DNA of 64,000 bases from Sphingomonadaceae bacterium (lineage in GTDB: Bacteria > Chloroflexota > UBA6077). Positions 2,239 through 16,832 of this stretch are shown piece by piece; position 1 is the first letter of the stretch, and every line of letters begins with the position of its first letter. The stretch lies in assembly GCA_050261575.1 (NCBI GenBank), contig JBLNDL010000057.1, forward strand, positions 1 through 64,000, in the 5' to 3' direction. Made by a program: the position numbers and the translations under genes. The notes under the pieces were generated by a model. The model had not been told where the DNA came from. It ran no database searches and saw nothing but the letters and a program-made list of their open reading frames with translations.

Positions 2239-2598
2239 CTATTTGTAGCTCTCCGGGAGCCGGAGAATGGCGAACAGGATCTCCGCGTGATCGGCCTCCA
2301 GGTAGAGCCGCCCGTCGGACTGCATCCAGCCGTCGAGAGCCAGGGGGCCGAATACTCGATACTCGCCAGCCGGGATCTGATGGGCGGTGATGTCGCCGGT
2401 CCGCTTGTATGGGTCCTGAGCGGAAGTCAGCGTGATCGTGTGGGCGACGGCCCCCGAGTTGTAGGCGAGGACGATCTCCCGCCCCGTCAGGGTAACCTGG
2501 TTCTTATTGGCCACATCGGCGGCCGTCCAGGTCAGGGCCGCCGGGTTGACCCCGTAGCATCCGGGGGCATTGATGGGCGTTAGGTCGGTGCGGGCCAT
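2239..2598 (-). CDS. Phage virion-module protein, function unknown
   Basis: RBS GGAGGG, co-oriented ORF with plausible beta-rich sequence. Confidence 0.7.
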   Translation of the reverse strand: MARTDLTPINAPGCYGVNPAALTWTAADVANKNQVTLTGREIVLAYNSGAVAHTITLTSAQDPYKRTGDITAHQIPAGEYRVFGPLALDGWMQSDGRLYLEADHAEILFAILRLPESYK

Positions 2599-2607
2599 CT
2601 GTCCCTC

Positions 2608-2889
2608 CTAGCTCAGTCTGTTTCCGAACCGATCGTAGATCGGTGGCGTCGGCGGTCTCGGTGGAGGGGGCGGGGGCCCGTGCCGCTCGAGGTAGTGCGC
2701 GTCCATCGCCTCCTCCCCGTCAAGGGTGTCGAAGGCGCAGAGGACGCACTCCAGGCGCCGGATCCCGTTCCATGAAGAGACCCTGTATCGCTCGGGTTCG
2801 GCTGGCGGCTCGGCCTTGACCTCCACGGCAGGTCCCGCGGCCTCGACCTCGGGACCTGCCGGTGCCCCCTCGGGCTTGCGCTTGCTCAT
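2608..2889 (-). CDS. Small phage protein with C2H2-like motif
   Basis: RBS AAGGAGG; CVLC...HYLERH; Pro-rich tail. Confidence 0.65.
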   Translation of the reverse strand: MSKRKPEGAPAGPEVEAAGPAVEVKAEPPAEPERYRVSSWNGIRRLECVLCAFDTLDGEEAMDAHYLERHGPPPPPPRPPTPPIYDRFGNRLS

Positions 2890-2901
2890 GGATCCTCCTT
2901 C

Positions 2902-3300
2902 CTAGGCCGAGACCGCTTTCTCGACCTGGTAGTTGCAGACGTATCGGGGCCGGCCGTTGCCGTCGGCCCCCAACGGGAACGGCGACTGGAGGGGGTAGAC
3001 CCCCAGGTACCAGGTCCCCGAAAGGGCCTGGTTGCGGATCCCCACCAGGACGGCGTTGACCTGCTCGGCCCGGGCCCTGGCGGCGGGTTCCGTCTCGGCA
3101 CGGGCGACCAGTTGGAACCGGCGACGCTCGGTGTTGACCCCCGGGGCCCCGTGGGCGAAGGTGGGTTGCTCCCCCCCGTACTCGGTCAGGGCGACGGCGG
3201 CCGCGGGCTCGTCGGGCAGGCCCGCCAGGAACAGGTCGACCCCCAGGGTCCCGACCCCCATGGCCTCCAGGTAGGCACCGAGCTCGTCGGTCATGCTCAT
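2902..3300 (-). CDS. Tail terminator / minor capsid family protein
   Basis: Position after gp10-like gene; LQSPFPLGADGNGRPRYVCNY motif. Confidence 0.75.
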   Translation of the reverse strand: MSMTDELGAYLEAMGVGTLGVDLFLAGLPDEPAAAVALTEYGGEQPTFAHGAPGVNTERRRFQLVARAETEPAARARAEQVNAVLVGIRNQALSGTWYLGVYPLQSPFPLGADGNGRPRYVCNYQVEKAVSA

Positions 3301-3723: not shown

Positions 3724-4041
3724 CTAGGTGTAGAGAACCGTGTGGTGCGCGCCGGATTCGTCCGGATACGACCCGACCGCCAGGATGACGGGCCTCGACC
3801 CGTCGGGCAGGGTGAGCCGATCGAAGGGCGAGACGACCGCAGCGGCCCCGAGGGTTATCGTCTTGGTCGAGACCCTCTCGCTTCCGGCCGAGTCGGTGAC
3901 CCTCCGGATCCGCCCGACGATCCGGGCCTTGTACTGAACAGCGGCGCCATAGAGCGCCTCGCCGTATGCGTTGACACCCGTTCGGGGTTCTATGGCTACA
4001 GTCTCGGTCATGAGAGCGAGGAGCTCGGGGTCGATCCCCAT
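3724..4041 (-). CDS. Head closure (head-tail joining) protein
   Basis: Start MGIDPELL overlaps upstream stop (TGATG); NAYGE, DRLTLPDG motifs; position. Confidence 0.75.
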   Translation of the reverse strand: MGIDPELLALMTETVAIEPRTGVNAYGEALYGAAVQYKARIVGRIRRVTDSAGSERVSTKTITLGAAAVVSPFDRLTLPDGSRPVILAVGSYPDESGAHHTVLYT

Positions 4042-4484
4042 CAGACCCGGTCCTCCCAGTAGTTGTCTCCCGTCGCCGGATCCGACGGGTACGTGTGGAG
4101 ATCCCTCGAGAACGCCGGCTCGACCCGGTCGCCATCCTCGGCCCGGGCCTCCTTGTCGCTCCTGGAGATCGCGCCCGCCCAAGGGGTCGCCCCCTTGCGG
4201 AGCTGCTTGCGGAGGCGGGCGACCGTCTCCCTGTACTGGCGGTGTCGGTCGGAGGCGTCGATCCGGAGATCCCCGACCTGCTTGTTGACCTGGCGGGCCA
4301 GGCGGTCGAGGATCCTCTCCGCGCCGGCGACCGCGGCCCGAAGCACAGACCCCTCCGACGCGAGGAGGTAGGCGATCTCCTCGTCGGAGAGGGAGACCCC
4401 GGCGAGCTCGGCGGTGTCGCCGACCAGGAACCGGACCCGGTCGCGGTCCGAGGTGCCGGGGTCGCCGGAGTAGGTGAACGTCAT
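4041..4484 (-). CDS. Head-tail connector (adaptor) protein
   Basis: MTFTYSGDP..DRVRFLVGDT..LSDEEI pattern; position. Confidence 0.75.
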   Translation of the reverse strand: MTFTYSGDPGTSDRDRVRFLVGDTAELAGVSLSDEEIAYLLASEGSVLRAAVAGAERILDRLARQVNKQVGDLRIDASDRHRQYRETVARLRKQLRKGATPWAGAISRSDKEARAEDGDRVEPAFSRDLHTYPSDPATGDNYWEDRV

Positions 4485-4804
4485 GGGTTAGCCTCCGGAT
4501 CCGCCGGCGAGTTAGCGGGGTTGCCCTTGGGCCCGAGGATCCCGATCGGCTGCTGGACCTTGTAAAGGCCGATGGAACTGGCGCCGGCGATGAGGCCCGT
4601 CAGGAACCCGTCGAACAGGACGATCGGGGTGAGGGTCCCGGCGGTCAGATGGACGGCCAGGGTCGCCCCGTCGACGACGACGATCCCCATCAGAAGGGCG
4701 ACCCTCGGGATCCACTCCTCGGGTAGCGCCCCCTTGATGACCTGGACAAGTATTGAGACCAGAACGGCGGCCCCGCCGACAGTCATGGCGTCGTTAGCGG
4801 TCAT
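4481..4804 (-). CDS. Putative holin (three hydrophobic segments)
   Basis: LVQVIK..LPEEWIP..LLMG..GLIAGASSIGLY holin-like pattern; ATGA-coupled start. Confidence 0.7.
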   Translation of the reverse strand: MTANDAMTVGGAAVLVSILVQVIKGALPEEWIPRVALLMGIVVVDGATLAVHLTAGTLTPIVLFDGFLTGLIAGASSIGLYKVQQPIGILGPKGNPANSPADPEANP

Positions 4805-5112
4805 GATGGAACTCCCTCCCTGCCTTCTCGCATCGAAACGTTCATGGCGGTTAGCGGGCATTCCCGCCCGTGCTTGTGTTGTTGCTCCAGGACCAGGAGG
4901 CGGTCGTCCATCTTGCCCATTCGCACCGAGAGATCCTTCTGGCTGGAGACAACCTCCTTCATGGTGGCTGCGAACTCGGCTAGGGCCTGGGAGTTCTGCT
5001 GGATGACTTCCAGCAGCCGCGGGTTGATGTCCTTGTAGGCAAGCCAGACCAAGTAGAACGCAACGGCAGCGAACCCGAACTGGGCCAACGCCATCATCAT
5101 CTCGACGCTCAT
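4801..5112 (-). CDS. Single-TM plus coiled-coil protein, BhlA/UviB-like holin candidate
   Basis: AQFGFAAVAFYLVW N-terminal TM followed by coiled coil. Confidence 0.55.
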   Translation of the reverse strand: MSVEMMMALAQFGFAAVAFYLVWLAYKDINPRLLEVIQQNSQALAEFAATMKEVVSSQKDLSVRMGKMDDRLLVLEQQHKHGRECPLTAMNVSMREGREGVPS

Positions 5113-5119
5113 ACGGACC

Positions 5120-5404
5120 TCACCTCTGTTTGCCGGGCCTGTGACCGGTCCGGTGCGAGTTGGAACGCCGTCCTTGGGCGGCTGGGGTGGCGGAAGCCGC
5201 AGCTACCGCCGGCCTCTCCTGGGGCTCATCGGCCGCCGGCGCCTTCTCGGGTGGGCTTGGCTCGGCCTGGACGTCGGGGACCTCCTCGATCCATCCGAGG
5301 TTGATGTAAGACCTCAGGTTGGGCCAGGTGGCCGCCTCCGGAACGGGGTCGCCGTAGTGGACCGTCCGGGTCCCGAGATCGAGAACTCGCTTGGCGACGA
5401 ACAT
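5120..5404 (-). CDS. Hypothetical phage protein
   Basis: RBS GAGGAGGAG before MFVAKR; follows capsid gene. Confidence 0.65.
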   Translation of the reverse strand: MFVAKRVLDLGTRTVHYGDPVPEAATWPNLRSYINLGWIEEVPDVQAEPSPPEKAPAADEPQERPAVAAASATPAAQGRRSNSHRTGHRPGKQR

Positions 5405-5434
5405 CGGCTTACTCCTCCTCGTAAGGGGCCGACA

Positions 5435-5470
5435 GGCCGCCGGCGCCGCCGTCGAGAGGCGCCGGCGGCC
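5435..5470 (-). terminator. GC-rich 13-bp hairpin after major capsid gene (stabiliser or attenuator)
   Basis: ggccgccggcgcc / ggcgccggcggcc inverted repeat; no U-tract. Confidence 0.4.
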
Positions 5471-5493
5471 CCGCAAATCGGCAGGCCTGCTCA

Positions 5494-6471
5494 CTAGGCG
5501 ATGACTCCGGAGAAGAACACGGCCAGGTCAGAGGCAATGACCTTCATGTCGAAGGCCATCTCACCCTCGACCCGCTCGGATTTCGAGTGTTCCATCCGGA
5601 AATTCGTGATGCGGTTCCCCTGGGGACCGGCTCCCAGGTACCCCGTCCACGAGAAGGTGTACCCGGCGGATGGCTGCATCAGGCTCGGGCTCGGCGCCGC
5701 GTAGCACAGGAGGGCGTTCTTGCCGTACATGAACGCCATCGAGTCCGCCGCCCCCTCGGCCGCGGTATTCTCGACCCCACCGGGCACCAGTACTCGATCG
5801 ACCTCGAAGAGGGCAGCCAGGAGCTCACGAGTGACGATCCCCCGCTGCGTGTACTGGATCCGGCCGAGGATGTCGGCATGGTCGCAGAGGACGTCGTAGA
5901 CCGTCGGCCCGAGTACCAGGGTGTTCGGACGGAAACCGGTGAGCCGCTGGATCTCGCGAGAGTAGGTCCTGATATCCTTAATGGGGGTCGAGCCAGCGAC
6001 CGACCATTGAAGGACCTGACCCGCAGCCGGGTTCGCGGCGACGCCGGCCACATCGGTGGCCCAGATGCCGGCCGCAAAGTAGTTGGCAACCCATATCTTC
6101 TCGCGCAGCAGGAGGAGTTGGCGGGTTACGAACTTGGTGGCCTCGGCATCTACGTTGAGAGGCGCCTGCTGATTAGCCCTAACCGAGTCCGGTATGTCCT
6201 TGTGATGGGCGTAGACACGGCAGAAGTACGGTGGTGCGGTCGAGACCGTGTAGCCGGAGCCCGCCGACTCGGTCCCGGGTGCCCGCTCTTTCGCCTCCGA
6301 TCGGAACCATTCGCCCTTCGGGAAAGTGAAGTAGACGTCCGACTGAGCCTCGACGGGGACGTTGGGGAAGACCTGAGCTGCGATGAACTCCCGATCGTCC
6401 TGCATGTAGGCGATCGAGATGTTGGTTAGTGGCTTATTGACGTGGACGTCGCTCGGGAGCGGATTCTGCAT
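5494..6471 (-). CDS. Major capsid protein
   Basis: 325 aa; HVNKPLTNISIAY..FIAAQVFPNVPV..TGFRPNTLVLG; follows protease and decoration genes. Confidence 0.92.
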   Translation of the reverse strand: MQNPLPSDVHVNKPLTNISIAYMQDDREFIAAQVFPNVPVEAQSDVYFTFPKGEWFRSEAKERAPGTESAGSGYTVSTAPPYFCRVYAHHKDIPDSVRANQQAPLNVDAEATKFVTRQLLLLREKIWVANYFAAGIWATDVAGVAANPAAGQVLQWSVAGSTPIKDIRTYSREIQRLTGFRPNTLVLGPTVYDVLCDHADILGRIQYTQRGIVTRELLAALFEVDRVLVPGGVENTAAEGAADSMAFMYGKNALLCYAAPSPSLMQPSAGYTFSWTGYLGAGPQGNRITNFRMEHSKSERVEGEMAFDMKVIASDLAVFFSGVIA

Positions 6472-10552: not shown

Positions 10553-10904
10553 TCCCTCCCTCTGGCAGGTTGTGGGCGACCTCCGGATGAGATCGGATCC
10601 ACTCGGCGAAGGCCGCCAGGATCTCAGTCTGTCGAGGTTCCCAGGCGGGCTCTACCAGGACGTAGCCGACGCCGGGCACGTCGACGCGGACCTGGCCGTC
10701 GTCCAGGACCACCATGGCGACCCGATCGTGCATGTGGATCCGCTCCTCTGGCCCGGCCCACAGGAACTCCAGCCGGCCTCGAGCCTCGTCGACCTTGATC
10801 CACCAAAGGGGCCAGGGCCCGAGGGATCTCCGTCCCTCCATGACAACCGACAAGACGGCGCCGGCTTTGACCGTGCGCTCGAGTTGCTTCGTTGCCTCGC
10901 TCAT
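10536..10904 (-). CDS. Hypothetical protein, candidate immunity protein for MuF toxin domain
   Basis: 122 aa, ATGA-coupled to the MuF stop codon. Confidence 0.6.
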   Translation of the reverse strand: MSEATKQLERTVKAGAVLSVVMEGRRSLGPWPLWWIKVDEARGRLEFLWAGPEERIHMHDRVAMVVLDDGQVRVDVPGVGYVLVEPAWEPRQTEILAAFAEWIRSHPEVAHNLPEGGIACAL

Positions 10905-13900
10905 CGGACGACGTCCTCCACCTGTCTGCCGTTGATCTCGGTGATGCCATGCTGCCTAAACAGATCCAGGATCTCCCGGCGGCGGCCGCCGGAGTTGATC
11001 CGGATCAGATTGTCCACCAGGGAGACGCCATTCTTGATGATCGCCTCGTTGGCCCCATGGCGCGAGGCGTTCTTCCATGCCGCGATCGTGACGTTCCGCC
11101 TCGTCTTGGTGGCGGGGTCGGAGCGGCCGTACATATCGCCGTCGTAGGATATCAGGTCCGTCCGGAGGAGCAGCCGCTGATCGAAGACCAGGTGGTAGCT
11201 GTCCCAGGCCCGCTTCGGCATGATTCGGGTGAAGAAGTAGCTGGCTCCGCCGGTCCTCATGTCGGGCTCGGGGCTCATCCCCTGGCCGGTGTACACCCCG
11301 GTTCGGATTCGCTCCTCAGTGTTGAGGGCCCAGCCGTTACCCTCCAGGACGTCCCGCAGGAACGTGTAGGTGTCGCGGCTCCAGAGGTGGTGGGCGAGGG
11401 CGTAGTCTGCCATCTCGGTCTCGAAGGTCGACCGGTCGATGTCGAACCGCTCCCAGTAGGGCCGGCCGGCTGGACCCGTTGCCGTCGCCCCGCTTGCCGG
11501 GTTCCAACCGCGGTCGAACTTGGGCTCGGGGTTGTAGCCCGGGAGATCCTCGAGTTTGTCAGCCTTCTTGAGCTTGAGCTTCTTCTTGAGGGCCTCCTTG
11601 AGGACGGTCAACTTGCCTGCGACCGTCGGCTCGGCCTCGGCCGCGGCGATCGCCGAGTTCCAGGCGGCATCCCCCTCCAGCTTCATGGCATGGGCTTGCT
11701 TGTGGAGGTAGACGAGCTCAAGGTCTGCCCGGGTGGCCAGCTTGGCCTCGACTCCCAGGCGCTTGAACTGGTCCAGGGTGTCGGCGATCTCCCGGGCCGT
11801 CCCCTGGTAACCCTCCCTGTAGATGGTAAGCCTGCCCATCTTGGAGTAGGTGTTGGCGTCCCCGTGCTGGATGTAAATCCCCGTCATGCCGCCCCCGAGA
11901 TCGAGGGTGTAGCCGGTCTCTCCGGAGAGGATCTCCTTGGCAGCGCTGGCGACGATCTCCCCGTTCTGGAGGGTGCGCTTGTACTGCCAGGGCCGCTCGC
12001 GGCTCGCGTGGATCTTGTCCGGCGCGATCGGCGCCGGCTTGACTGGGATCTGGTACTGTTCGGCGAAGAGGTTGGGATCGTAGGCCGCCTTGAGCCAGGA
12101 CTCGACCTGCGCGACCGAGGCGGTCGCAACGTCCAGGACCGTCTTCCCGGTCATCTTCTCGATCAGGGCCGAGTAGTGGCCGAGCATGTCCTCGACGTCC
12201 TGGGGGGCCGAGGGGGAACTCGTCTTGACGATCTTCTCCGCGGCCTTCTGGATGCCTGCGACCTTGTCTGCCTTGAGAACGTCGTCCTTGCCCGGCGAGC
12301 CGGGCTTCAGGTGGTAATGGACGTGCTTGATCGTCGTCAGGACGTCGCCCCAGAGGTTGTCGGCGGGATGGGTCCGCGGCCCCGCGGCCGACGGCGTCCC
12401 GATCGCCTGGAGGATCCTCCCCTCGGCGGCCTCCCGCACCTTGGCCTCCAGGACCAGGGTTATCTTCGTCCCCTGTCGGATCTCGTAGGCCAGGACGTGG
12501 GCGTCCTCGAAGTCGGGGCCGCCGACCATGATGGACCTGCCGGCCCATCCCTGCTCGGTTACCTGGCGAGCGAAGTCGTCGTCGAGCCTGGTGTAGGCGC
12601 CCACGGGGGTCTGCTGGCCGAGCCTGCGCGCCCGCGCTGCGTCCGCCCTCTTGTAGAGGTCGTCGAAGTCGGAGACGATGGTACGTTTGCGCTGGACCAG
12701 GCGGTCCAGGAGCTCGTCGACGGTGCGGTAGTATCCCTTGCGGACCCCGTACTCGGCGTACGGGCGGAACGCATCCCTGAGGACCCGATCATCCAGGTCG
12801 ACGACCCGCTTGAGGATGGGGGCGATCGCCGATCGATCGAGGGTGATCCGGCCAGCGATGTGGGCCTCGAACATGCGGTTGTAGACTACGGGGAGAGGAT
12901 TCGGGTTGTAGGTCCAATCGAGCGTATCGGACCCAATCCACTTGACCGCTTGCCCCTTGTCGACGGCGTAGATCCGGCCGGCCTTGCTTATCAGGAAGGC
13001 CCCCTCGTTGGAGTCGTGTTGGCCGACGAGCCAGTCAAGGACCTGGTGGGTCTGAATGTCCTCGAGTTGCTGTCTGGTCAGCGTGTGGAGACCGTCGGCC
13101 TTGAGAGGGGCGTCGACATCGTTGAACATCCTCTGGATCGTGCCCGTCTTTCCCCCAATCGTGACCAAGTACACCTCGGGGGCGGGAAGGCCGAGCTCGG
13201 CCATGATCTTGTAGGTCGCCCGCTCGGCGAGGCCGGCGACCTCATCGGGCTTGAACAGCCACTTGGCCCCTTCCTTGTCCCGGTAGACATGCTTCTCGTG
13301 GATCCCCCCGAGGCTCATGGCAATCTCGGTCAGGTCCTGTATCCACTCGGGCGACCCAGGGAGAGCCTTCGGCGGGAGTGGCGGGGTTTCCTGCTTTGGC
13401 AGGGACGGCGCCGTCGGATTGACGAGGCCCTGTCCACACCGGCAATTGTGAGTGATTATCCCTTCAGCGATGTACCATCCTGATGCTGTCTGGAGGTTGT
13501 AGACGTGACCGCGAAACGGAACGATATCGACAGCGACTATGTCGTCGGCCAGTACCTGGCCGGCAGGGGAGCTCCTAGCATCGCCAAGGAACTCGGCGTA
13601 AGCGAGACCGTCATCCGCCGGATACTTCGGGAGGGCAACGTTCAGCCTCGTCCGATCGGCAACCCCCGGTTGGACATCGATCTGACCGAGTTGAGTCGCT
13701 TGTACCTCGACGGCATCTCGGAGAAGGCGCTGGCCGAGCGCTTCGGTGTTGACCGGAGTGGTATCCGCCGACGCTTGCTTGCTCTTGGGATTGAGCCTCG
13801 CGGGCAGTCCGATGCCGAGTCTGTTAAGTGGGCGAGAATGAGCCCCGACGAGCGGTCGCGCCAGGTTGCCGCCGCCCACGCAGCTACGCGTGGCAAGCCC

Positions 13901-15379
13901 AAGTCGCTCGAAGCCAAGATGGCTCATGCCCAAACCGTCCAGTCTCGAGCTCTCCACATCTCCCCAACGGAATACCTGCTCGCCGCTCTTCTTCGGGAAC
14001 GTGGCGTCGACGTCGTTCATCAGCAGGCCATCGGTCCATACAACTGCGACCTGGGAGCCTTTCCCGTCGCCGTGGAAGTCTTCGGTGGCCACTGGCACTG
14101 GCATGGCCGACACATGCTCCGCACACCCGAACGCATGCGCTATATCCTCGATGGGGGCTGGCATCTCCTGATCGTCGCCGTCCATTCCTGGCGTCCCCTC
14201 GTGCCTGAGACGGCAGACTACATAGTCGCCTTTCTTAAGGAGGCACGCTGCGACCCAGCCAGACGGCGTGAGTATCGGGTGATTCGGGGTGCAGGAGAGC
14301 GTCTTGCCTCCGGATGTGCTGATGACGATGAGATCTCCCTCGTACCAGCGCTTGCTCGCGGCCGCGATTCCCTTGGCCGTTACGCGAGCATCCCCAGGTA
14401 GACATTGCGGGTGGAGAGGCGGGTTGGCGACCTCATATCCCCCCGGCGCTTTGAACGGCTTGTCGACCGGGACCTCCTGTCCCTTCATCTGCTTGCAGGT
14501 GGGGCAGAGGCGATCGTCAGGGGTGACTATCCATCGCCTCATGGTCTTCGACCGGTCGAGGTATCCCTGATCGGCGGCGAGCTGCCACATGGCTGCCTGG
14601 CCGGCGTTGCTGGCCGCGATCGTCTCCGTCCGAGCGATGGCCCTCGCGCGGTATCGTCGGAGGCGCAGGGCATAGTTGGCGAACAGCCTGTCGATCTTCT
14701 CGTCTGTGAGGGACTTGTCCCCCTTGGTCTGCCTCTTCTTCAGCCCGTTGTAGTAGTTGTCCGCGGCGGCAGCGAGGGTGTTCGTGAGAGGGACCAGTGG
14801 AAGGATCTTCCGCGCCAGGGCCGCTGGCCCGTAGCCCTCCTGGAACTCCTCCACCAGTAGGGCACGGATCTGGGCCTTGGAGGCCTCAGAGATGTCGTCC
14901 TTGATGAGCTTGGTCGACTCGGTCTCGGCCCACTCGAGGGCCATCGGGTTCAGCAGGTCGAAGTACCCCTTGATCTTGGGACCGAGCATGCTCATGACGG
15001 CGATGTATGGGTCGGACTCCGCCGCCCGCTTCGCCTCCGGAGGGAGGAGGTCGAGGCCCTGGCCGGCGACGTGGGCGCCCCCCAGGTAGCCGGCCCGTAG
15101 GACGTCGACCATGCGGAGGAATCGACTCTCGAGGGTCGCGTAGGGGATCGCCCCGAGGGCGGCGTCGACGTCCCGCGCTCTGATCGCCCGCACCAGGGCC
15201 CGTTCGTCCACATCGGCGAGGGCGTCCTCGAAGGAGCTGAGGATCACCCGCTCGAGGATTGGGGCGACCAGGTCGGCGACGCCGTGAATCCGCCTCCACT
15301 CGGCATCGGCCGTCGTCTCGGCAAACAGGCGCCTTGCCCGTAGAGAGGGGAGCGGAGGGCGGGTCGTCACGACTAGCAT
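10901..15379 (-). CDS. MuF (SPP1 gp7-like) minor head protein with intein, HipA/PI3K-like kinase domain and putative ART-like C-terminus
   Basis: RARAIARTET, W..TPDDRLCPTC, PPLHPQ|CRC MuF motifs; WLFKP..DWLVGQHD..IYAVDKG kinase motifs; RBS GGAGG before MLVVTT. Confidence 0.88.
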   Translation of the reverse strand: MLVVTTRPPLPSLRARRLFAETTADAEWRRIHGVADLVAPILERVILSSFEDALADVDERALVRAIRARDVDAALGAIPYATLESRFLRMVDVLRAGYLGGAHVAGQGLDLLPPEAKRAAESDPYIAVMSMLGPKIKGYFDLLNPMALEWAETESTKLIKDDISEASKAQIRALLVEEFQEGYGPAALARKILPLVPLTNTLAAAADNYYNGLKKRQTKGDKSLTDEKIDRLFANYALRLRRYRARAIARTETIAASNAGQAAMWQLAADQGYLDRSKTMRRWIVTPDDRLCPTCKQMKGQEVPVDKPFKAPGGYEVANPPLHPQCLPGDARVTAKGIAAASKRWYEGDLIVISTSGGKTLSCTPNHPILTPSGWVAACLLKKGDYVVCRLRHEGTPGMDGDDQEMPAPIEDIAHAFGCAEHVSAMPVPVATEDFHGDGKGSQVAVVWTDGLLMNDVDATFPKKSGEQVFRWGDVESSRLDGLGMSHLGFERLGLATRSCVGGGNLARPLVGAHSRPLNRLGIGLPARLNPKSKQASADTTPVNTEALGQRLLRDAVEVQATQLGQIDVQPGVADRTRLNVALPKYPADDGLAYAEFLGDARSSPAGQVLADDIVAVDIVPFRGHVYNLQTASGWYIAEGIITHNCRCGQGLVNPTAPSLPKQETPPLPPKALPGSPEWIQDLTEIAMSLGGIHEKHVYRDKEGAKWLFKPDEVAGLAERATYKIMAELGLPAPEVYLVTIGGKTGTIQRMFNDVDAPLKADGLHTLTRQQLEDIQTHQVLDWLVGQHDSNEGAFLISKAGRIYAVDKGQAVKWIGSDTLDWTYNPNPLPVVYNRMFEAHIAGRITLDRSAIAPILKRVVDLDDRVLRDAFRPYAEYGVRKGYYRTVDELLDRLVQRKRTIVSDFDDLYKRADAARARRLGQQTPVGAYTRLDDDFARQVTEQGWAGRSIMVGGPDFEDAHVLAYEIRQGTKITLVLEAKVREAAEGRILQAIGTPSAAGPRTHPADNLWGDVLTTIKHVHYHLKPGSPGKDDVLKADKVAGIQKAAEKIVKTSSPSAPQDVEDMLGHYSALIEKMTGKTVLDVATASVAQVESWLKAAYDPNLFAEQYQIPVKPAPIAPDKIHASRERPWQYKRTLQNGEIVASAAKEILSGETGYTLDLGGGMTGIYIQHGDANTYSKMGRLTIYREGYQGTAREIADTLDQFKRLGVEAKLATRADLELVYLHKQAHAMKLEGDAAWNSAIAAAEAEPTVAGKLTVLKEALKKKLKLKKADKLEDLPGYNPEPKFDRGWNPASGATATGPAGRPYWERFDIDRSTFETEMADYALAHHLWSRDTYTFLRDVLEGNGWALNTEERIRTGVYTGQGMSPEPDMRTGGASYFFTRIMPKRAWDSYHLVFDQRLLLRTDLISYDGDMYGRSDPATKTRRNVTIAAWKNASRHGANEAIIKNGVSLVDNLIRINSGGRRREILDLFRQHGITEINGRQVEDVVR
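13445..14404 (-). mobile_element. Intein, 320 aa, inserted in the MuF HPQ|CRC motif
   Basis: Block A CLPGDARV, block B CTPNHPILT, block F HVYNLQT, block G IITHN followed by Cys+1. Confidence 0.95.
13505..14401 (+). CDS. Antisense-encoded putative homing endonuclease (two HTH domains plus Vsr/DUF559-like PD-(D/E)xK domain) nested inside the intein
   Basis: GGAGG 8 nt before GTG; IAKELGVSETVIRRIL and LAERFGVDRSGIRRRL HTHs; SPTE..QQAIGPYNCD..AVEVFGGHWH..GW motif. Confidence 0.88.
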   Translation: MTAKRNDIDSDYVVGQYLAGRGAPSIAKELGVSETVIRRILREGNVQPRPIGNPRLDIDLTELSRLYLDGISEKALAERFGVDRSGIRRRLLALGIEPRGQSDAESVKWARMSPDERSRQVAAAHAATRGKPKSLEAKMAHAQTVQSRALHISPTEYLLAALLRERGVDVVHQQAIGPYNCDLGAFPVAVEVFGGHWHWHGRHMLRTPERMRYILDGGWHLLIVAVHSWRPLVPETADYIVAFLKEARCDPARRREYRVIRGAGERLASGCADDDEISLVPALARGRDSLGRYASIPR

Positions 15380-15492
15380 ACGGGCGCCCTCCGCTCGATG
15401 TAGTAGTGCCAGTCGCCGACGTTGGCGTAGAGGACCGTCGGGTCGGCGGAACGGTCCCATCCCCTCCAACTCACGAATCCCAGGACTGTCAT
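15373..15492 (-). CDS. 39-aa ORF coupling the portal and MuF genes
   Basis: ATG overlaps portal stop (ATGA); stop overlaps MuF start. Confidence 0.4.
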   Translation of the reverse strand: MTVLGFVSWRGWDRSADPTVLYANVGDWHYYIERRAPVC

Positions 15493-16832
15493 TCCTCGAC
15501 CTCGTCCTGGGGTAGTGTCAGCGCGGGTTTCCTCGGGCGGGCGGCACCCGAATCCTCCATGCCCAACCCTCCCTCCGGGACCGGCAGCCCGACCTTCCGG
15601 TAGATATGCTCGAAGACCTCCGGCGTGAGGGGCCCGCCGGCGGCCGCGAGGTTCTGGAGGAACTCTCCCCATACCTTCGGGTCGACGGTCTCGACGTCGC
15701 CATGGTGGAGGTACGGCGGGGCAACAGCCCATCTCATCCCGTTCAGTCGCAGTAGGGTCTTGATATGGGGGTTGACGATGGCGCCGATCCCGTCCATCCA
15801 AGCGCCGAGCGCGAAGCCGAACATCGCGGTCTTGTCGCTCGAGAGGGCGTAGGATCCCCTCCCTTCGTGTCCAAGGAGCACGAAGTCCGCGAGGAGAGCA
15901 GCGGCCATCCTCGTCTCCTTGCGGCGGATTATCCGGTCAGTGTCGAACTGACGCTGGCCCCCGGTCGAAAGGAGTTCGATCCGATACAGTGCCTTGCCGC
16001 TCTCCTGGTCGACGTCGCCCGGCATGACCAGTCCCTCTTGCTCATCCCGGCGGATGCTGGTCACCAGCTTCTGACAGTGGTCCAGGATGGCCTTCTCGTC
16101 GTCCGTGGCGTCAGGAGCTAGGAGTTCCGACGGCACGTAGATGACGGGCAGACCCGCGAGGTCGCGCTCGGCGCCGATCCCCTCGATTGTCTCCAGGTGC
16201 CGGATGAAGTACCAATCGCGGTAGCAGGACCGGAGAGCCGAGATCCCCTCAGGGTTATTCTTGCGGCTCGTCGTGCGAAACAGCATGCACTTCGAGAGGG
16301 GAACCTCTCGGCGCATGAAGTCGGGCTCGGCCTGCTGAATGAAGCCGATGGCGTGGCCCTCCTGGTCGAAGATCCACTCCTGGATTGACTCCTGAGCTCG
16401 GATCGACCAGTCCCGCCAGCCGATCAGGCCGTCGTCATAGGCCGAGTGGCGGGTCGGGTCGCCGGGGTTATCCCCGTGGCGCCACTTGTACAGTACCTCC
16501 AGCGGGGCGAAGCCGTAGATAAGCTCGGTCAGGATCTCCGAGAGCTCCTCCTTGAACGGCGTTTCCATGTCGTCGAGGCATGTTTGGACGAACTCGGCCT
16601 GGTCGACGTCGGTCTCGTGGTCCGAGCCCGGCTGGATCGACCATTCGGCTGCCCGGATCATCATCTCGATGGCGAACAGGATCCCTCCGAGCAAGGAGCT
16701 CTGTTCCGACATCTCCCGGTAGACCTGGCGACCCCGGACGCCGCGGAGCTCGGGGAGGTACTCCTCGTGGACGTAGCCACCGGACCGTTTAAGTCCGGTA
16801 GTCCCTATCGCCTGCAGGTTGATTCGAGCCAT
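15489..16832 (-). CDS. Portal protein (DUF935/Mu gp29-like)
   Basis: NNPEGISALRSCY..W..IGAERDLAGLP, GSYALS motifs; follows terminase. Confidence 0.9.
   Translation of the reverse strand: MARINLQAIGTTGLKRSGGYVHEEYLPELRGVRGRQVYREMSEQSSLLGGILFAIEMMIRAAEWSIQPGSDHETDVDQAEFVQTCLDDMETPFKEELSEILTELIYGFAPLEVLYKWRHGDNPGDPTRHSAYDDGLIGWRDWSIRAQESIQEWIFDQEGHAIGFIQQAEPDFMRREVPLSKCMLFRTTSRKNNPEGISALRSCYRDWYFIRHLETIEGIGAERDLAGLPVIYVPSELLAPDATDDEKAILDHCQKLVTSIRRDEQEGLVMPGDVDQESGKALYRIELLSTGGQRQFDTDRIIRRKETRMAAALLADFVLLGHEGRGSYALSSDKTAMFGFALGAWMDGIGAIVNPHIKTLLRLNGMRWAVAPPYLHHGDVETVDPKVWGEFLQNLAAAGGPLTPEVFEHIYRKVGLPVPEGGLGMEDSGAARPRKPALTLPQDEVEE

What the first reader, a model, noticed from the sequence alone, without database searches (positions are those of the whole stretch)
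13445..14404. Intein with its putative homing endonuclease encoded on the antisense strand
Seen: the minus-strand MuF frame holds a canonical 320-aa intein (CLPGD..TPNHP..VYNL..THN|C) that splits the conserved HPQCRC motif. Its middle has no recognisable domain and reads like reverse-strand shadow. The plus strand carries a 298-aa ORF (13505-14401) with two HTH motifs, a basic linker and a Vsr/DUF559-like nuclease (SPTE..IGPYNCD..AVEVFGGHWH..GW), lying wholly within the intein. Established: intein homing endonucleases are normally in-frame domains between blocks B and F, made as part of the precursor. Inference: here mobility is supplied by a separately translated antisense gene, uncoupling nuclease expression from late head-gene expression and splicing. 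I know of no description of this arrangement but could not search.
Basis: partly seen in the sequence, partly recalled or inferred. Interest (0 to 1): 0.93.

Follow-up and report, generated by a model that had tools for sequence, protein, structure and literature searches.

The report
MuF intein with antisense homing endonuclease
A self-splicing protein insert (intein) in a phage head-assembly gene carries its DNA-cutting mobility enzyme as a separate gene on the opposite DNA strand; this is real and widespread, but a 2025 preprint already described the layout.

Summary
The minus-strand MuF gene (10901-15469) contains a 320-aa class-1 intein (13445-14404) that splits HPQ|CRC. A 298-aa plus-strand ORF (13505-14401) lies inside it, codon for codon antisense.

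An open frame alone means little in this high-GC DNA. The plus ORF is nevertheless a real gene:
- A profile finds 1,746 cluster representatives at E<=1e-30.
- Substitution patterns show purifying selection in the plus frame across the intein interior.

In 132 of 132 related loci the MuF frame stays open across the nuclease gene, and in 129 intein splicing blocks flank it. These loci include genomes of 40-50% GC. Salmonella Jerseyviruses show precise presence or absence of the element at HPN|CR.

The nuclease's -10 box, ribosome-binding site, start and stop are mirror images of intein blocks G, F and A, and codon choice is biased to make them.

Gosselin, Arsenault and Gogarten (bioRxiv 10.1101/2025.01.02.630785) report anti-sense VSR-like endonucleases in actinophage minor-capsid inteins. 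This scan has also met the layout on other DNA many times. The window holds a new member of a known kind. Expression, cleavage and splicing remain untested.

The parts
10901..15469 (-). MuF-like minor capsid / head morphogenesis gene, translated as a precursor that includes the intein (1522 aa from the first TTG; the true start is not settled)
   Evidence: ORF list. Pfam Phage_Mu_F at residues 270-356, E 1.7e-8. The Mu-type portal gene lies next to it at 15489-16832 (Portal_Mu, E 7.6e-26).
14405..15469 (-). N-extein, ending ...PPLHPQ
13445..14404 (-). Class-1 intein, 320 aa, with Cys1, TPNH (block B), GHVYNL (block F) and ITHN followed by +1 Cys
   Evidence: PHROG 15127 'head protein', E 2.2e-33. 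Catalytic residues are conserved across 107 unique relatives.
14225..14404 (-). Intein N-terminal splicing region (about aa 1-60), where the minus frame dominates selection. On the plus strand it also encodes endonuclease residues 241-298.
   Evidence: In the phase map, minus codon position 3 is the most variable here.
13550..14224 (-). Intein interior or 'linker' (about aa 61-285). It is read through in the MuF frame but evolves as the mirror image of the plus-strand gene.
   Evidence: Minus position 1 (= plus position 3) is more variable than minus position 3. No Pfam or NCBIfam domain.
13445..13549 (-). Intein C-terminal splicing region (about aa 286-320, blocks F and G). The minus frame dominates again.
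10901..13444 (-). C-extein starting CRCGQG, followed by an 847-aa extension of unknown function
   Evidence: The only Pfam match is a weak HipA_C hit, E 1.5e-4, below the cut-off.
13505..14401 (+). Antisense gene for a 298-aa putative homing endonuclease. The GTG start is the antisense of the block-F His codon; the TAG stop is the antisense of intein Leu2 (CTA).
13532..13783 (+). Two helix-turn-helix DNA-binding units (about residues 10-43 and 60-93)
13952..14317 (+). Vsr-like (EDxHD-type) nuclease domain, about residues 150-271, with invariant D182 (14048-14050), E191 (14075-14077) and H198 (14096-14098)
13492..13496 (+). GGAGG Shine-Dalgarno sequence, 8 nt before the GTG start; it is the antisense of the N-L-Q codons of intein block F
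   Evidence: Sequence. An SD-like 4-mer is present in 82 of 107 unique relatives. The Leu codon is CTC in 71 of 98, against 302 of 847 elsewhere.
13454..13459 (+). GATTAT, a weak -10-like hexamer (4 of 6, with A2 and T6). It sits where relatives have TATAAT and is the antisense of the Ile-Ile codons of intein block G.
   Evidence: The simple sigma-70 scan found no promoter here, so in this window it is a positional homologue only.

Best explanation
This is a mobile intein of the phage head-assembly protein MuF, built from two genes on opposite strands.

On the minus strand the MuF precursor is translated straight through a mini-intein. Its N-terminal (about aa 1-68) and C-terminal (about aa 283-320) splicing parts are joined by a linker of about 215 aa with no function of its own. 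The intein then splices out and restores the HPQ-CRC motif (inferred).

On the plus strand, codon for codon antisense to the linker and reaching into both splicing parts, lies a complete cistron for a 298-aa endonuclease. It has two N-terminal HTH units and a C-terminal Vsr-like nuclease of the EDxHD / I-Bth0305I type.

The endonuclease's expression signals are mirror images of conserved intein blocks:
- The -10 box is the antisense of Ile-Ile in block G.
- The Shine-Dalgarno sequence is the antisense of Asn-Leu-Gln/Glu in block F.
- The start codon is the antisense of the block-F His.
- The stop codon is the antisense of Leu2 in block A.

So the -10 box, ribosome-binding site, start and stop travel with the intein; any -35 would lie in the C-extein.

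The enzyme is inferred to cut intein-less MuF alleles at or near the HP(N/Q)|CR site during co-infection or in a lysogen. Recombinational repair then copies the intein and nuclease gene into the cut allele (homing).

Shown here: gene reality, fold, selection on each strand, conserved architecture, biased codon choice, and presence/absence polymorphism in relatives. Inferred: transcription, translation, cleavage specificity, splicing and homing.
For: (1) Homology. tblastn of the ORF finds 130 phage records (120 cover at least 80% of it), from Salmonella, Gordonia, Pseudomonas, Klebsiella, Escherichia, Vibrio and others. There are 140 proteins with E<=1e-3 among the 8000 candidates scored, the best at 7e-92. 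A profile finds 35,421 / 9,486 / 1,746 cluster representatives at E<=1e-3 / 1e-10 / 1e-30.

(3) Architecture. I examined 132 loci: 3 phage records, 49 genome loci and the best 80 of 575 viral matches, not dereplicated.
- 132 have the opposite frame open across the whole match.
- 129 have intein N and C splicing regions flanking it.
- 122 have the plus frame open to the end of the match.
- The codon register (plus position 1 = minus position 3) is the same in 132 of 133.

(4) Host gene. Of 49 genome-locus ORFs, 20 match Phage_Mu_F, 4 Phage_min_cap2 and 1 VG15. No unrelated extein family appears.

(5) Selection.
- In pairs 75-90% identical, differences per site are 0.188 / 0.084 / 0.336 at plus positions 1 / 2 / 3.
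- In an alignment built in the minus frame, the variability phase flips to the plus frame between intein aa 61 and 285. It flips back in both splicing regions and in the extein.

(6) Frame kept open. In 21 of 21 loci with GC below 0.52, the nuclease gene uses no TTA, CTA or TCA. These codons would be stops in the MuF frame. The per-locus chance of that is 2e-2 to 1e-9 given extein codon usage.

(7) Intein competence. Cys1 in 103 of 107, terminal Asn in 107 of 107, +1 Cys in 107 of 107, penultimate His in 94 of 107.

(8) Embedded signals.
- A start codon lies antisense to the block-F His in 69 of 107, and an SD-like 4-mer is present in 82 of 107.
- The stop lies inside the intein in 98 of 106, and exactly opposite codon 2 in 58 of the 67 with Leu2.
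- The block-G hexamer is a perfect TATAAT in 25 of 107 and matches at least 5 of 6 in 57. It has A2 and T6 in 80 and a preceding TGn in 41.
- Ile(-3) is ATA in 36 of 50 and Ile(-4) is ATT in 56 of 85. Elsewhere in the same loci the figures are 120 and 115 of 509.

(9) Mobility in relatives. Of 351 phage records matching a Jerseyvirus query (intein plus 400-nt flanks), 70 hold at least 80% of it. Of the 40 rows listed, 26 hold about half the query (45-50%) in two abutting pieces. In one checked case (phage wast) the allele reads PAHPN|CRSS, against PAHPN|intein|CRST.
Against: - There is no expression evidence. No RNA run is listed for this DNA.
- No cleavage or splicing data exist for any member of this element.
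- In this window the -10-like hexamer is weak (GATTAT) and the sigma-70 scan found nothing.
- Sequence-level links to solved nucleases are not significant on their own: the profile gives E 0.34 to 3r3p and 1.2 to 1cw0. Foldseek E-values are only 4.5e-3 to 1e-2. The assignment rests on fold and motif.
- I could not identify an equivalent of the last Asp of the EDxHD motif.
- I found no intein-less allele of this window's own MuF lineage. It was not found in 40 related genomes, and no contig bridges the element. Activity of this particular copy is therefore not shown.
- The preprint notes that some VSR-like groups look vertically inherited.
Confidence: 0.78

Rival explanations
1. The plus-strand ORF is a non-coding 'shadow' of the intein frame. 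High-GC genes leave the codon-aligned antisense frame open, and the HTH and nuclease resemblance is accidental.
For: The same plus frame is open for 863 codons over the neighbouring C-extein. GC at the third positions of the two frames is similar inside the intein.
Against: - Homologues reach E 7e-92.
- The ORF is intact in genomes of 40-50% GC.
- The interior shows the plus-frame substitution signature.
- The model is confident and has a Vsr fold.
Confidence: 0.01
2. The antisense gene is real but is no longer, or never was, the intein's homing enzyme. It could be a decaying passenger in a vertically inherited intein. It could also have been put to another use, such as a DNA-binding regulator or a nuclease against competing phages or host DNA.
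For: - No cleavage data exist.
- The preprint says several VSR-like groups show vertical inheritance.
- This window's promoter-like element is weak.
- No intein-less allele of this lineage was found.
Against: - The catalytic residues are invariant.
- The plus frame is under purifying selection.
- The gene is bound to one insertion site in one host protein in 129 of 132 loci.
- Jerseyviruses show precise presence/absence.
- Exclusion of intein-less competitors by cutting their MuF gene would be mechanistically the same act as homing.
Confidence: 0.13
3. The nuclease gene is an independent selfish element that uses the intein as a safe harbour. It targets nuclease-less mini-inteins, or another site, rather than the empty MuF site. 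On this view the intein and nuclease are two parasites and not one unit (step II of the model of Dassa et al. 2009).
For: - Dassa et al. propose that free-standing endonucleases invade inteins at a point distinct from the intein insertion site.
- One locus, L026, has a free-standing homologue beside an intein-less MuF gene.
- This is a likely account of the element's origin.
Against: - In the Jerseyvirus set, the 40 listed rows hold either nearly all of the query, about half of it (the precise empty site), or 25% or less (one flank). No listed row has the size expected for a nuclease-less mini-intein.
- The -10, SD, start and stop are woven into the splicing blocks, which argues for long co-evolution as a unit.
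Confidence: 0.08

Closest known systems
Full inteins with an anti-sense VSR-like homing endonuclease in actinobacteriophages (Gosselin, Arsenault and Gogarten, bioRxiv 10.1101/2025.01.02.630785; abstract, sections 8 and 15, and passages read; supplements not seen)
   Same: - A contiguous intein with the endonuclease ORF on the antisense strand.
- A VSR-like fold with a helical N-terminal region (the preprint reports an HHpred link to 3R3P).
- Minor capsid (MuF) is among the host proteins.
- The in-frame interior has no recognisable structure.
- Gordonia phages carry homologues of this window's ORF under their MuF genes (37-39% identity, E down to 5e-39). In Vivi2, the one record checked, the ORF is antisense.
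   Different: - The preprint surveys PhagesDB only. Here the same element appears in genomes labelled as many bacterial phyla and in Salmonella, Pseudomonas, Klebsiella, Vibrio and Haemophilus phages.
[quoted passage not shown] Here the ORF spans 897 of the intein's 960 bases and overlaps both splicing regions.
- Its main text does not mention promoter, start codon, codon usage or Salmonella.
- I could not check from its supplements whether the same phages are listed.
Inteins with anti-sense LAGLIDADG endonucleases (Synechocystis DnaX, Chloroflexus SpoVR-like; Gorbalenya 1998 and Gogarten 2002, known to me only as cited in the preprint)
   Same: The endonuclease gene lies on the opposite strand inside a contiguous intein.
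   Different: The nuclease family (LAGLIDADG, not Vsr-like) and the host genes differ. I did not read those papers.
'Fractured genes': split inteins with a free-standing Vsr-like or GIY-YIG endonuclease gene between the halves (Dassa et al. 2009, PMC2677866; passages read)
   Same: - A Vsr-like endonuclease with N-terminal DNA-binding motifs sits at the endonuclease-insertion region of an intein.
- The setting is phage DNA.
- The nuclease is translated separately.
   Different: - There all three ORFs lie on the same strand and the intein is split into two genes.
- Here the nuclease is antisense and the intein frame is continuous (tested).
- MuF is not among the host enzymes named in the passage read.
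I-Bth0305I, prototype of the EDxHD homing endonuclease family (Taylor et al. 2011, PMC3239194; passages read; structure 3R3P)
   Same: - Two N-terminal HTH/NUMOD-type motifs and a C-terminal Vsr-like nuclease.
   Different: - I-Bth0305I is encoded in a group I intron of recA on the sense strand.
- Sequence similarity is not significant by HMMER (E 0.34).
- Its dimeric state, 14-bp pseudopalindromic target and 2-base 5' overhang are not tested for this protein.
Intein in the F (gp30) gene of the Mu-like prophage of Methylococcus capsulatus (Ward et al. 2004, PMC517821; passages read)
   Same: An intein in MuF that resembles archaeal IF-2 inteins. This window's intein also hits the IF-2 intein model (E 1.8e-8). 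The authors found 'no recognizable endonuclease'.
   Different: They judged it degenerate and doubtfully mobile and did not look at the opposite strand. I did not examine that genome, so identity with this element is a lead, not a result.

Membership tests
Class 1 intein (HINT domain) | N-terminal Cys/Ser, block B TxxH, penultimate His with terminal Asn, and +1 Cys/Ser/Thr | tested here: met
   The window has Cys1, TPNH, His319-Asn320 and +1 Cys. Across 107 unique relatives: Cys1 in 103, Asn in 107, +1 Cys in 107, penultimate His in 94.
Class 1 intein (HINT domain) | Match to a curated intein profile above its threshold | tested here: inconclusive
   Pfam Intein_splicing scores 34.8 bits against a cut-off of 35.8 for the excised intein. 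TIGR01445 scores 22.7 against 24.5. Several relatives pass, for example 55.1 and 44.2 bits.
Class 1 intein (HINT domain) | In-frame insertion at a conserved host site, with intein-less alleles that close up precisely | tested here: met
   The intein splits HPQ|CRC at the end of the Phage_Mu_F domain. A Jerseyvirus relative without it reads PAHPN|CRSS. No intein-less allele of this window's own lineage was found.
Class 1 intein (HINT domain) | Protein splicing activity | not testable with these tools
   Needs expression of the precursor.
EDxHD / Vsr-like homing endonucleases (I-Bth0305I family) | Vsr-like nuclease fold in the C-terminal domain | tested here: met
EDxHD / Vsr-like homing endonucleases (I-Bth0305I family) | The composite catalytic motif E, D, H, D is conserved | tested here: inconclusive
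   D182, E191 and H198 are invariant in 40 of 40 sequences, in GPYNxD...VAVEvxGGxWH. I did not identify an equivalent of the last Asp. Residue-by-residue equivalence to Vsr is inferred from motif order, not from a printed structural alignment.
EDxHD / Vsr-like homing endonucleases (I-Bth0305I family) | N-terminal HTH/NUMOD-type DNA-binding repeats | tested here: met
   Two HTH units. The number of repeats varies among relatives.
EDxHD / Vsr-like homing endonucleases (I-Bth0305I family) | Significant sequence-profile similarity to family members | tested here: inconclusive
   The profile against PDB gives 3r3p E 0.34 and 1cw0 E 1.2. Pfam MTES_1575 is matched by 26 of 40 members, best E 6.9e-8. 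The window's own hit is below the cut-off.
EDxHD / Vsr-like homing endonucleases (I-Bth0305I family) | Site-specific cleavage of the element-free allele | not testable with these tools
   Needs purified protein and an intein-less MuF substrate.
Anti-sense VSR-like HEN inteins (Gosselin et al. 2025 preprint) | A contiguous intein, with the endonuclease ORF on the antisense strand between the splicing blocks, of VSR-like type, in a phage gene such as minor capsid | tested here: met
   Homologues lie under MuF genes of Gordonia phages; in Vivi2 the ORF is antisense.
Fractured gene / split intein with free-standing endonuclease (Dassa et al. 2009) | Intein halves in separate ORFs, with the endonuclease gene between them on the same strand | tested here: not met
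   The MuF frame is continuous through the element in the window and in 132 of 132 loci, and the nuclease is on the opposite strand.
Canonical large intein with an in-frame endonuclease domain | A LAGLIDADG or HNH domain in the intein's own frame | tested here: not met
   No such domain in Pfam or NCBIfam. The interior shows no minus-frame constraint.

The most novel reading that the evidence does not exclude
This element may be more than a rare actinophage curiosity. It may be an old, MuF-specific mobile element found across many bacterial phyla and phage groups (1,746 50%-identity cluster representatives at E<=1e-30), and annotation largely misses it.

The nuclease's -10 box, ribosome-binding site, start and stop are hard-wired as mirror images of the conserved intein blocks G, F and A, with codon choice in the intein bent to serve the other strand. 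About 30 codons (window 14225-14317) encode parts of two folded domains at once: the Vsr-like nuclease core and the HINT block-B region.

Neither the spread beyond actinophages nor the embedded signals appear in the preprint's main text. Its supplements were not seen.
Probability: 0.6. Interest if true: 0.55.

Novelty: new member of a known kind. Interest (0 to 1): 0.4.

Why it matters
- **Two proteins from one stretch of DNA.** About 900 bases must serve two proteins on opposite strands. This gives a natural, well-sampled case for studying dual coding and how codon choice on one strand can build expression signals on the other.
- **Intein biology.** The element supports the view that inteins gain mobility by capturing free-standing endonuclease genes. 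It also shows that 'endonuclease-less, degenerate' MuF inteins, such as the one noted in Methylococcus in 2004, may be mobile after all.
- **Annotation.** Gene callers seldom report a gene nested antisense in another. In the three phage records I opened, none annotates the full ORF, so a large nuclease family goes largely unrecorded.

None of this makes the window's copy itself new in kind.

Tried and rejected
**Expression**
- No RNA holder is listed for window 13300-14600.

**Reads**
- Contigs of four soil metagenome runs were laid on 12900-15000. No contig joins across the intein.
- The joints seen (for example 13510 to 14264) have short sides (21-31 letters) at 88% likeness. They probably come from related inteins in other organisms.
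- One contig that bridges the N-junction shows fewer listed differences in the intein part than in the extein part. Seven of its differences were not shown, so I draw nothing from it.

**Structure**

**Sequence searches**
- phmmer of the ORF alone against PDB gave only weak HTH hits.
- PHROGs has no family for the nuclease. It matches only HTH modules of other proteins, best E 1.6e-6.

**Promoter scans**
- Window: none.
- Salmonella phage locus L002: none on the plus strand.
- Aaphi23: one 10-of-12 match with TG at L003 2445-2472, among 6 sites found where 3.9 are expected by chance.
- A -35/-10 pair scan in 15 low-GC loci beat shuffles in only some of them. The position-specific hexamer count is the informative test.

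**Relatives**
- The window's MuF N-extein was not found in 39 of 40 related genomes searched; one gave a weak match.
- The free-standing L026 nuclease has no close relative in the viral contigs.

**Literature**
- Searches with 'opposite strand', 'MuF', 'head morphogenesis' and 'antisense' gave no description of the layout.
- Searches found the preprint and no other paper.
- The library lacks most subscription journals, so Gorbalenya 1998 and Gogarten 2002 were not read.
Full report
**1. Observation**

The minus strand carries an ORF at 10901-15469, 1522 aa from the first TTG. Pfam finds Phage_Mu_F at residues 270-356 (E 1.7e-8), followed by an Intein_splicing match that is split over residues 362-675.

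The intein runs from Cys356 to Asn675. That is 320 aa, window 13445-14404. The junctions read ...CAC CCG CAA | TGT CTA CCT GGG... and ...AAT | TGC CGG TGT....

The plus ORF 13505-14401 (298 aa, GTG start) lies wholly inside the intein. It matches several HTH families: HTH_23 at E 1.4e-5, above Pfam's cut-off, and HTH_11 at 2.9e-5. It also matches, weakly, the restriction-endonuclease family MTES_1575 (E 0.0036).

The plus frame is the codon-aligned antisense frame: plus position 1 is minus position 3. The same frame is open for 863 codons over the neighbouring C-extein. In this 65% GC DNA an open antisense frame is therefore expected by chance and proves nothing. GC at the third position of the MuF frame drops from about 0.83-0.95 in the exteins to 0.63-0.78 inside the intein.

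**2. The plus ORF is a real gene**

*Homologues*
- tblastn against 50,697 phage records finds 130 with a match, 120 of which cover at least 80% of the ORF. They include Salmonella (63), Gordonia (15), Pseudomonas (15), Klebsiella (8), Escherichia (6) and Vibrio (4) phages, and Haemophilus phage Aaphi23. In the 40 rows listed, the annotated feature under the match is usually a MuF-type head protein.
- I opened three records: Gordonia phage Vivi2, Salmonella phage vB_StyS-sam and Aaphi23. In all three the match is antisense to the annotated MuF gene, and both frames are open. This holds even in the Aaphi23 locus, which is 43% GC.
- The word-indexed protein search gives 140 proteins with E<=1e-3 among the 8000 candidates scored. 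The best is 7e-92, and a few are named 'very-short-patch-repair endonuclease' or DUF559 by their sources.
- A profile of 40 members finds 35,421 / 9,486 / 1,746 cluster representatives at E<=1e-3 / 1e-10 / 1e-30 among 1.84 billion.

*Fold and motifs*
- The alignment has invariant D182, E191 and H198, in GPYNxD...VAVEvxGGxWH.
- The AlphaFold model has mean pLDDT 90.2. It shows two HTH units, a helical connector and an alpha/beta domain at about residues 150-271.
- Foldseek ranks the I-Bth0305I catalytic domain (3r3p) first (E 4.5e-3, prob 1.0), then the double-HTH protein 2lvs, then Vsr.
- Sequence-only links to these structures are not significant (3r3p E 0.34, 1cw0 E 1.2). The nuclease assignment therefore rests on fold and motif.

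**3. The arrangement is conserved and both frames are kept open**

With the 40-member alignment I fetched 49 loci from species-representative genomes and the best 80 of 575 confirmed viral-contig matches. The genome loci are labelled as, among others, Gemmatimonadota, Armatimonadota, Planctomycetota, Chloroflexota, Pseudomonadota, Bacillota, Actinomycetota, Bacteroidota, Cyanobacteria and Fibrobacter.

Counts over these plus the three phage loci (132 loci, not dereplicated):
- 132 have a stop-free opposite frame across the whole nuclease match.
- 129 have the intein N- and C-terminal splicing regions flanking it on the opposite strand. Two of the three exceptions are cut by a contig end. The third is L026, described in section 6.
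- 122 have the plus frame open to the end of the tblastn match. In 9 of the other 10 the ORF stops 2-24 codons earlier, in the C-terminal tail; the tenth (L051) is cut by a contig end.

The codon register is the same in 132 of 133, counting the window.

Of the 49 genome-locus host ORFs:
- 20 match Phage_Mu_F, 4 Phage_min_cap2 and 1 VG15, all of them families of MuF-type minor head proteins.
- 8 also carry a portal domain, so they are portal-MuF fusions.
- 33 match Intein_splicing at E<=1e-5.
- 8 match nothing.
- No unrelated host family appears.

In this register a stop in one frame is a TTA, CTA or TCA codon in the other. In all 21 loci with GC below 0.52, the nuclease gene uses none of these three codons. 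Their own exteins use them for 9-51% of Leu and 4-35% of Ser. The per-locus chance of zero occurrences is 2e-2 to 1e-9.

**4. Which frame is under selection, and where**

In a codon alignment built on the nuclease protein, pairs 75-90% identical differ at 0.188 / 0.084 / 0.336 of plus positions 1 / 2 / 3 (9 pairs, 2208 codons). The other identity bins show the same order. This is the signature of purifying selection in the plus frame.

As a stricter test I aligned the element in the minus frame, which biases towards the intein. I used 124 sequences (107 unique) and measured nucleotide entropy per codon position along the window's intein.
- Minus position 3 is the most variable in the N-extein, in intein aa 1-60 and in aa 286-320.
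- Between aa 61 and 285 (window 13550-14224) the phase flips, and minus position 1 (plus position 3) is more variable than minus position 3.

The intein is thus a mini-intein whose interior evolves as the mirror of the nuclease gene. Apparent conservation in the minus frame, such as EDFHGDG, lies opposite the VAVEVFGG active-site motif.

The reverse also occurs. The nuclease motif R-V-I-R-G is the codon-wise mirror of intein block B, T-P-N-H-P. The modelled nuclease domain reaches residue 271, so window 14225-14317 appears to encode parts of two folded domains.

The intein's catalytic residues are kept: Cys1 in 103 of 107, Asn in 107 of 107, +1 Cys in 107 of 107 and penultimate His in 94 of 107.

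**5. Expression signals sit inside the intein blocks**

*Window*
- GGAGG lies at 13492-13496, 8 nt before the GTG at 13505.
- The GTG is the antisense of the His codon of block F (GHVYNL).
- The TAG stop is the antisense of Leu2 (CTA).

*107 unique relatives*
- The codon opposite that His is ATG in 50, GTG in 15 and TTG in 4. An SD-like 4-mer lies upstream in 82.
- The Leu codon of N-L-Q/E is CTC, which gives GAG(G), in 71 of 98. Elsewhere in the same loci CTC accounts for 302 of 847 Leu codons.
- The stop lies inside the intein in 98 of 106, and exactly opposite codon 2 in 58 of the 67 that have Leu2.
- A hexamer opposite the two residues before T/V-H-N of block G lies 45 nt upstream of the start. 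It is a perfect TATAAT in 25 of 107 and matches at least 5 of 6 in 57. It has A2 and T6 in 80, and TGn precedes it in 41.
- The Ile codons that create this hexamer are strongly preferred. ATA is used in 36 of 50 at position -3 and ATT in 56 of 85 at position -4. Elsewhere in the same loci the figures are 120 and 115 of 509.

The window's own hexamer is a weak GATTAT (13454-13459), and the generic sigma-70 scan finds nothing there. These are sequence inferences. No RNA run holds this DNA.

**6. Mobility**

A Jerseyvirus query of intein plus 400-nt flanks matches 351 phage records. Seventy hold at least 80% of it. Of the 40 rows listed (taken at even steps down the ranking), 8 hold at least 93%, 26 hold 45-50% in two abutting pieces and 6 hold 25% or less.

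In the one two-piece record I checked (phage wast) the gene reads ...PAHPN|CRSS.... The carrier reads ...PAHPN|CLLGD...IIAHN|CRST.... The element is thus present or precisely absent among phages whose flanks are about 88-91% identical, as expected of a homing element.

No listed row has the size expected of a nuclease-less mini-intein. For the window's own lineage I found no empty allele.

One locus, L026 (a Thermoleophilia MAG), has an intein-less MuF gene with intact HPQCRC. A free-standing, convergent homologue of the nuclease overlaps its 3' end by 17 nt. This fits an origin from a free-standing endonuclease that lived beside its target gene.

**7. What is known**

- Dassa et al. 2009 (PMC2677866, passages) described Vsr-like endonuclease genes between split-intein halves, all on one strand.
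- Taylor et al. 2011 (PMC3239194, passages) characterised I-Bth0305I and named the EDxHD family. It has two N-terminal HTH/NUMOD motifs and a C-terminal Vsr-like domain, forms a dimer and leaves 2-base 5' overhangs.
- Ward et al. 2004 (PMC517821, passages) noted an intein in the F gene of a Mu-like prophage that 'lacks a recognizable endonuclease'.
- Gosselin, Arsenault and Gogarten (bioRxiv 10.1101/2025.01.02.630785, version of 2025-10-20; abstract, sections 8 and 15, and passages; supplements closed) are decisive for novelty. [quoted passage not shown] Minor capsid is one of the host proteins, and they report an HHpred link to 3R3P. They cite earlier anti-sense LAGLIDADG cases.

The preprint's main text does not mention promoter, start codon, codon usage or Salmonella. 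Two further searches found no other paper on the layout.

Earlier follow-ups of this scan reached the same verdict on other genomes. One of them also placed the start, ribosome-binding site and probable promoter inside the intein end motifs. I saw those notes only.

**8. Verdict**

The core interpretation, a separately encoded antisense homing endonuclease inside a contiguous intein, is well supported by comparison but untested at the bench. The window's element is a new member of a kind already described.

The parts that may add to what is in print are the spread far beyond actinophages, the strict tie to the MuF HP(N/Q)|CR site, and the expression signals mirrored in the splicing blocks.

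Noticed in passing
L026:3977-5702 (Thermoleophilia MAG contig): This locus has an intein-less MuF gene (4656..5702, minus strand, HPQCRC intact). A free-standing convergent homologue of the nuclease (3977..4672, plus strand, 231 aa, one HTH) overlaps its 3' end by 17 nt. It is the only one of 132 loci where the nuclease is not nested in an intein, and may be a precursor or a derivative of the nested form.
   Followed up: partly
window 10901-13444 (-): The MuF C-extein carries an 847-aa extension after CRC. The only family match is a weak HipA_C-like hit (E 1.5e-4, below the cut-off), and PHROGs gives none. From memory, MuF proteins fused to C-terminal toxin or effector domains are known; I did not test this.
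   Followed up: partly
window 10892-13483 (+): An 863-aa ORF lies antisense to the MuF C-extein, in the same frame as the nuclease ORF. I did not search it for homologues; I take it for a typical high-GC shadow ORF. It shows that an open frame alone is no evidence of a gene here.
   Followed up: partly
L004, L008, L009, L014, L017, L040, L051, L052: In these genome loci the intein-bearing MuF domain is fused downstream of a portal domain in one stop-free frame. L017 also has a NUDIX domain between them.
   Followed up: no
L039:2789-5578 (Scytonema MAG): The host ORF has a second Hint-type domain (PT-HINT E 1.4e-13, Hint_2) upstream of the MuF-site intein.
   Followed up: no
L002 (LC507823.1) 2727-3128 (+): In Salmonella phage vB_StyS-sam, a 134-aa fragment of the antisense nuclease ORF is annotated as a hypothetical protein (ORF43). 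The full 269-aa ORF is not annotated. In Vivi2 and Aaphi23 nothing is annotated on that strand.
   Followed up: yes
L003 (Aaphi23) 2445-2472 (+): A promoter-like site (CTTACA, 16 nt, TATAAT, preceded by TG) lies wholly inside the last 20 codons of the intein. It ends 28 nt before the nuclease ATG.
   Followed up: partly
phage records: Annotators give the intein-bearing MuF genes several different names: head morphogenesis protein, NAD+--asparagine ADP-ribosyltransferase, capsid maturation protease (Mycobacterium phage Sejanus), and 'minor head protein with inserted intein' in two Escherichia phages.
   Followed up: no
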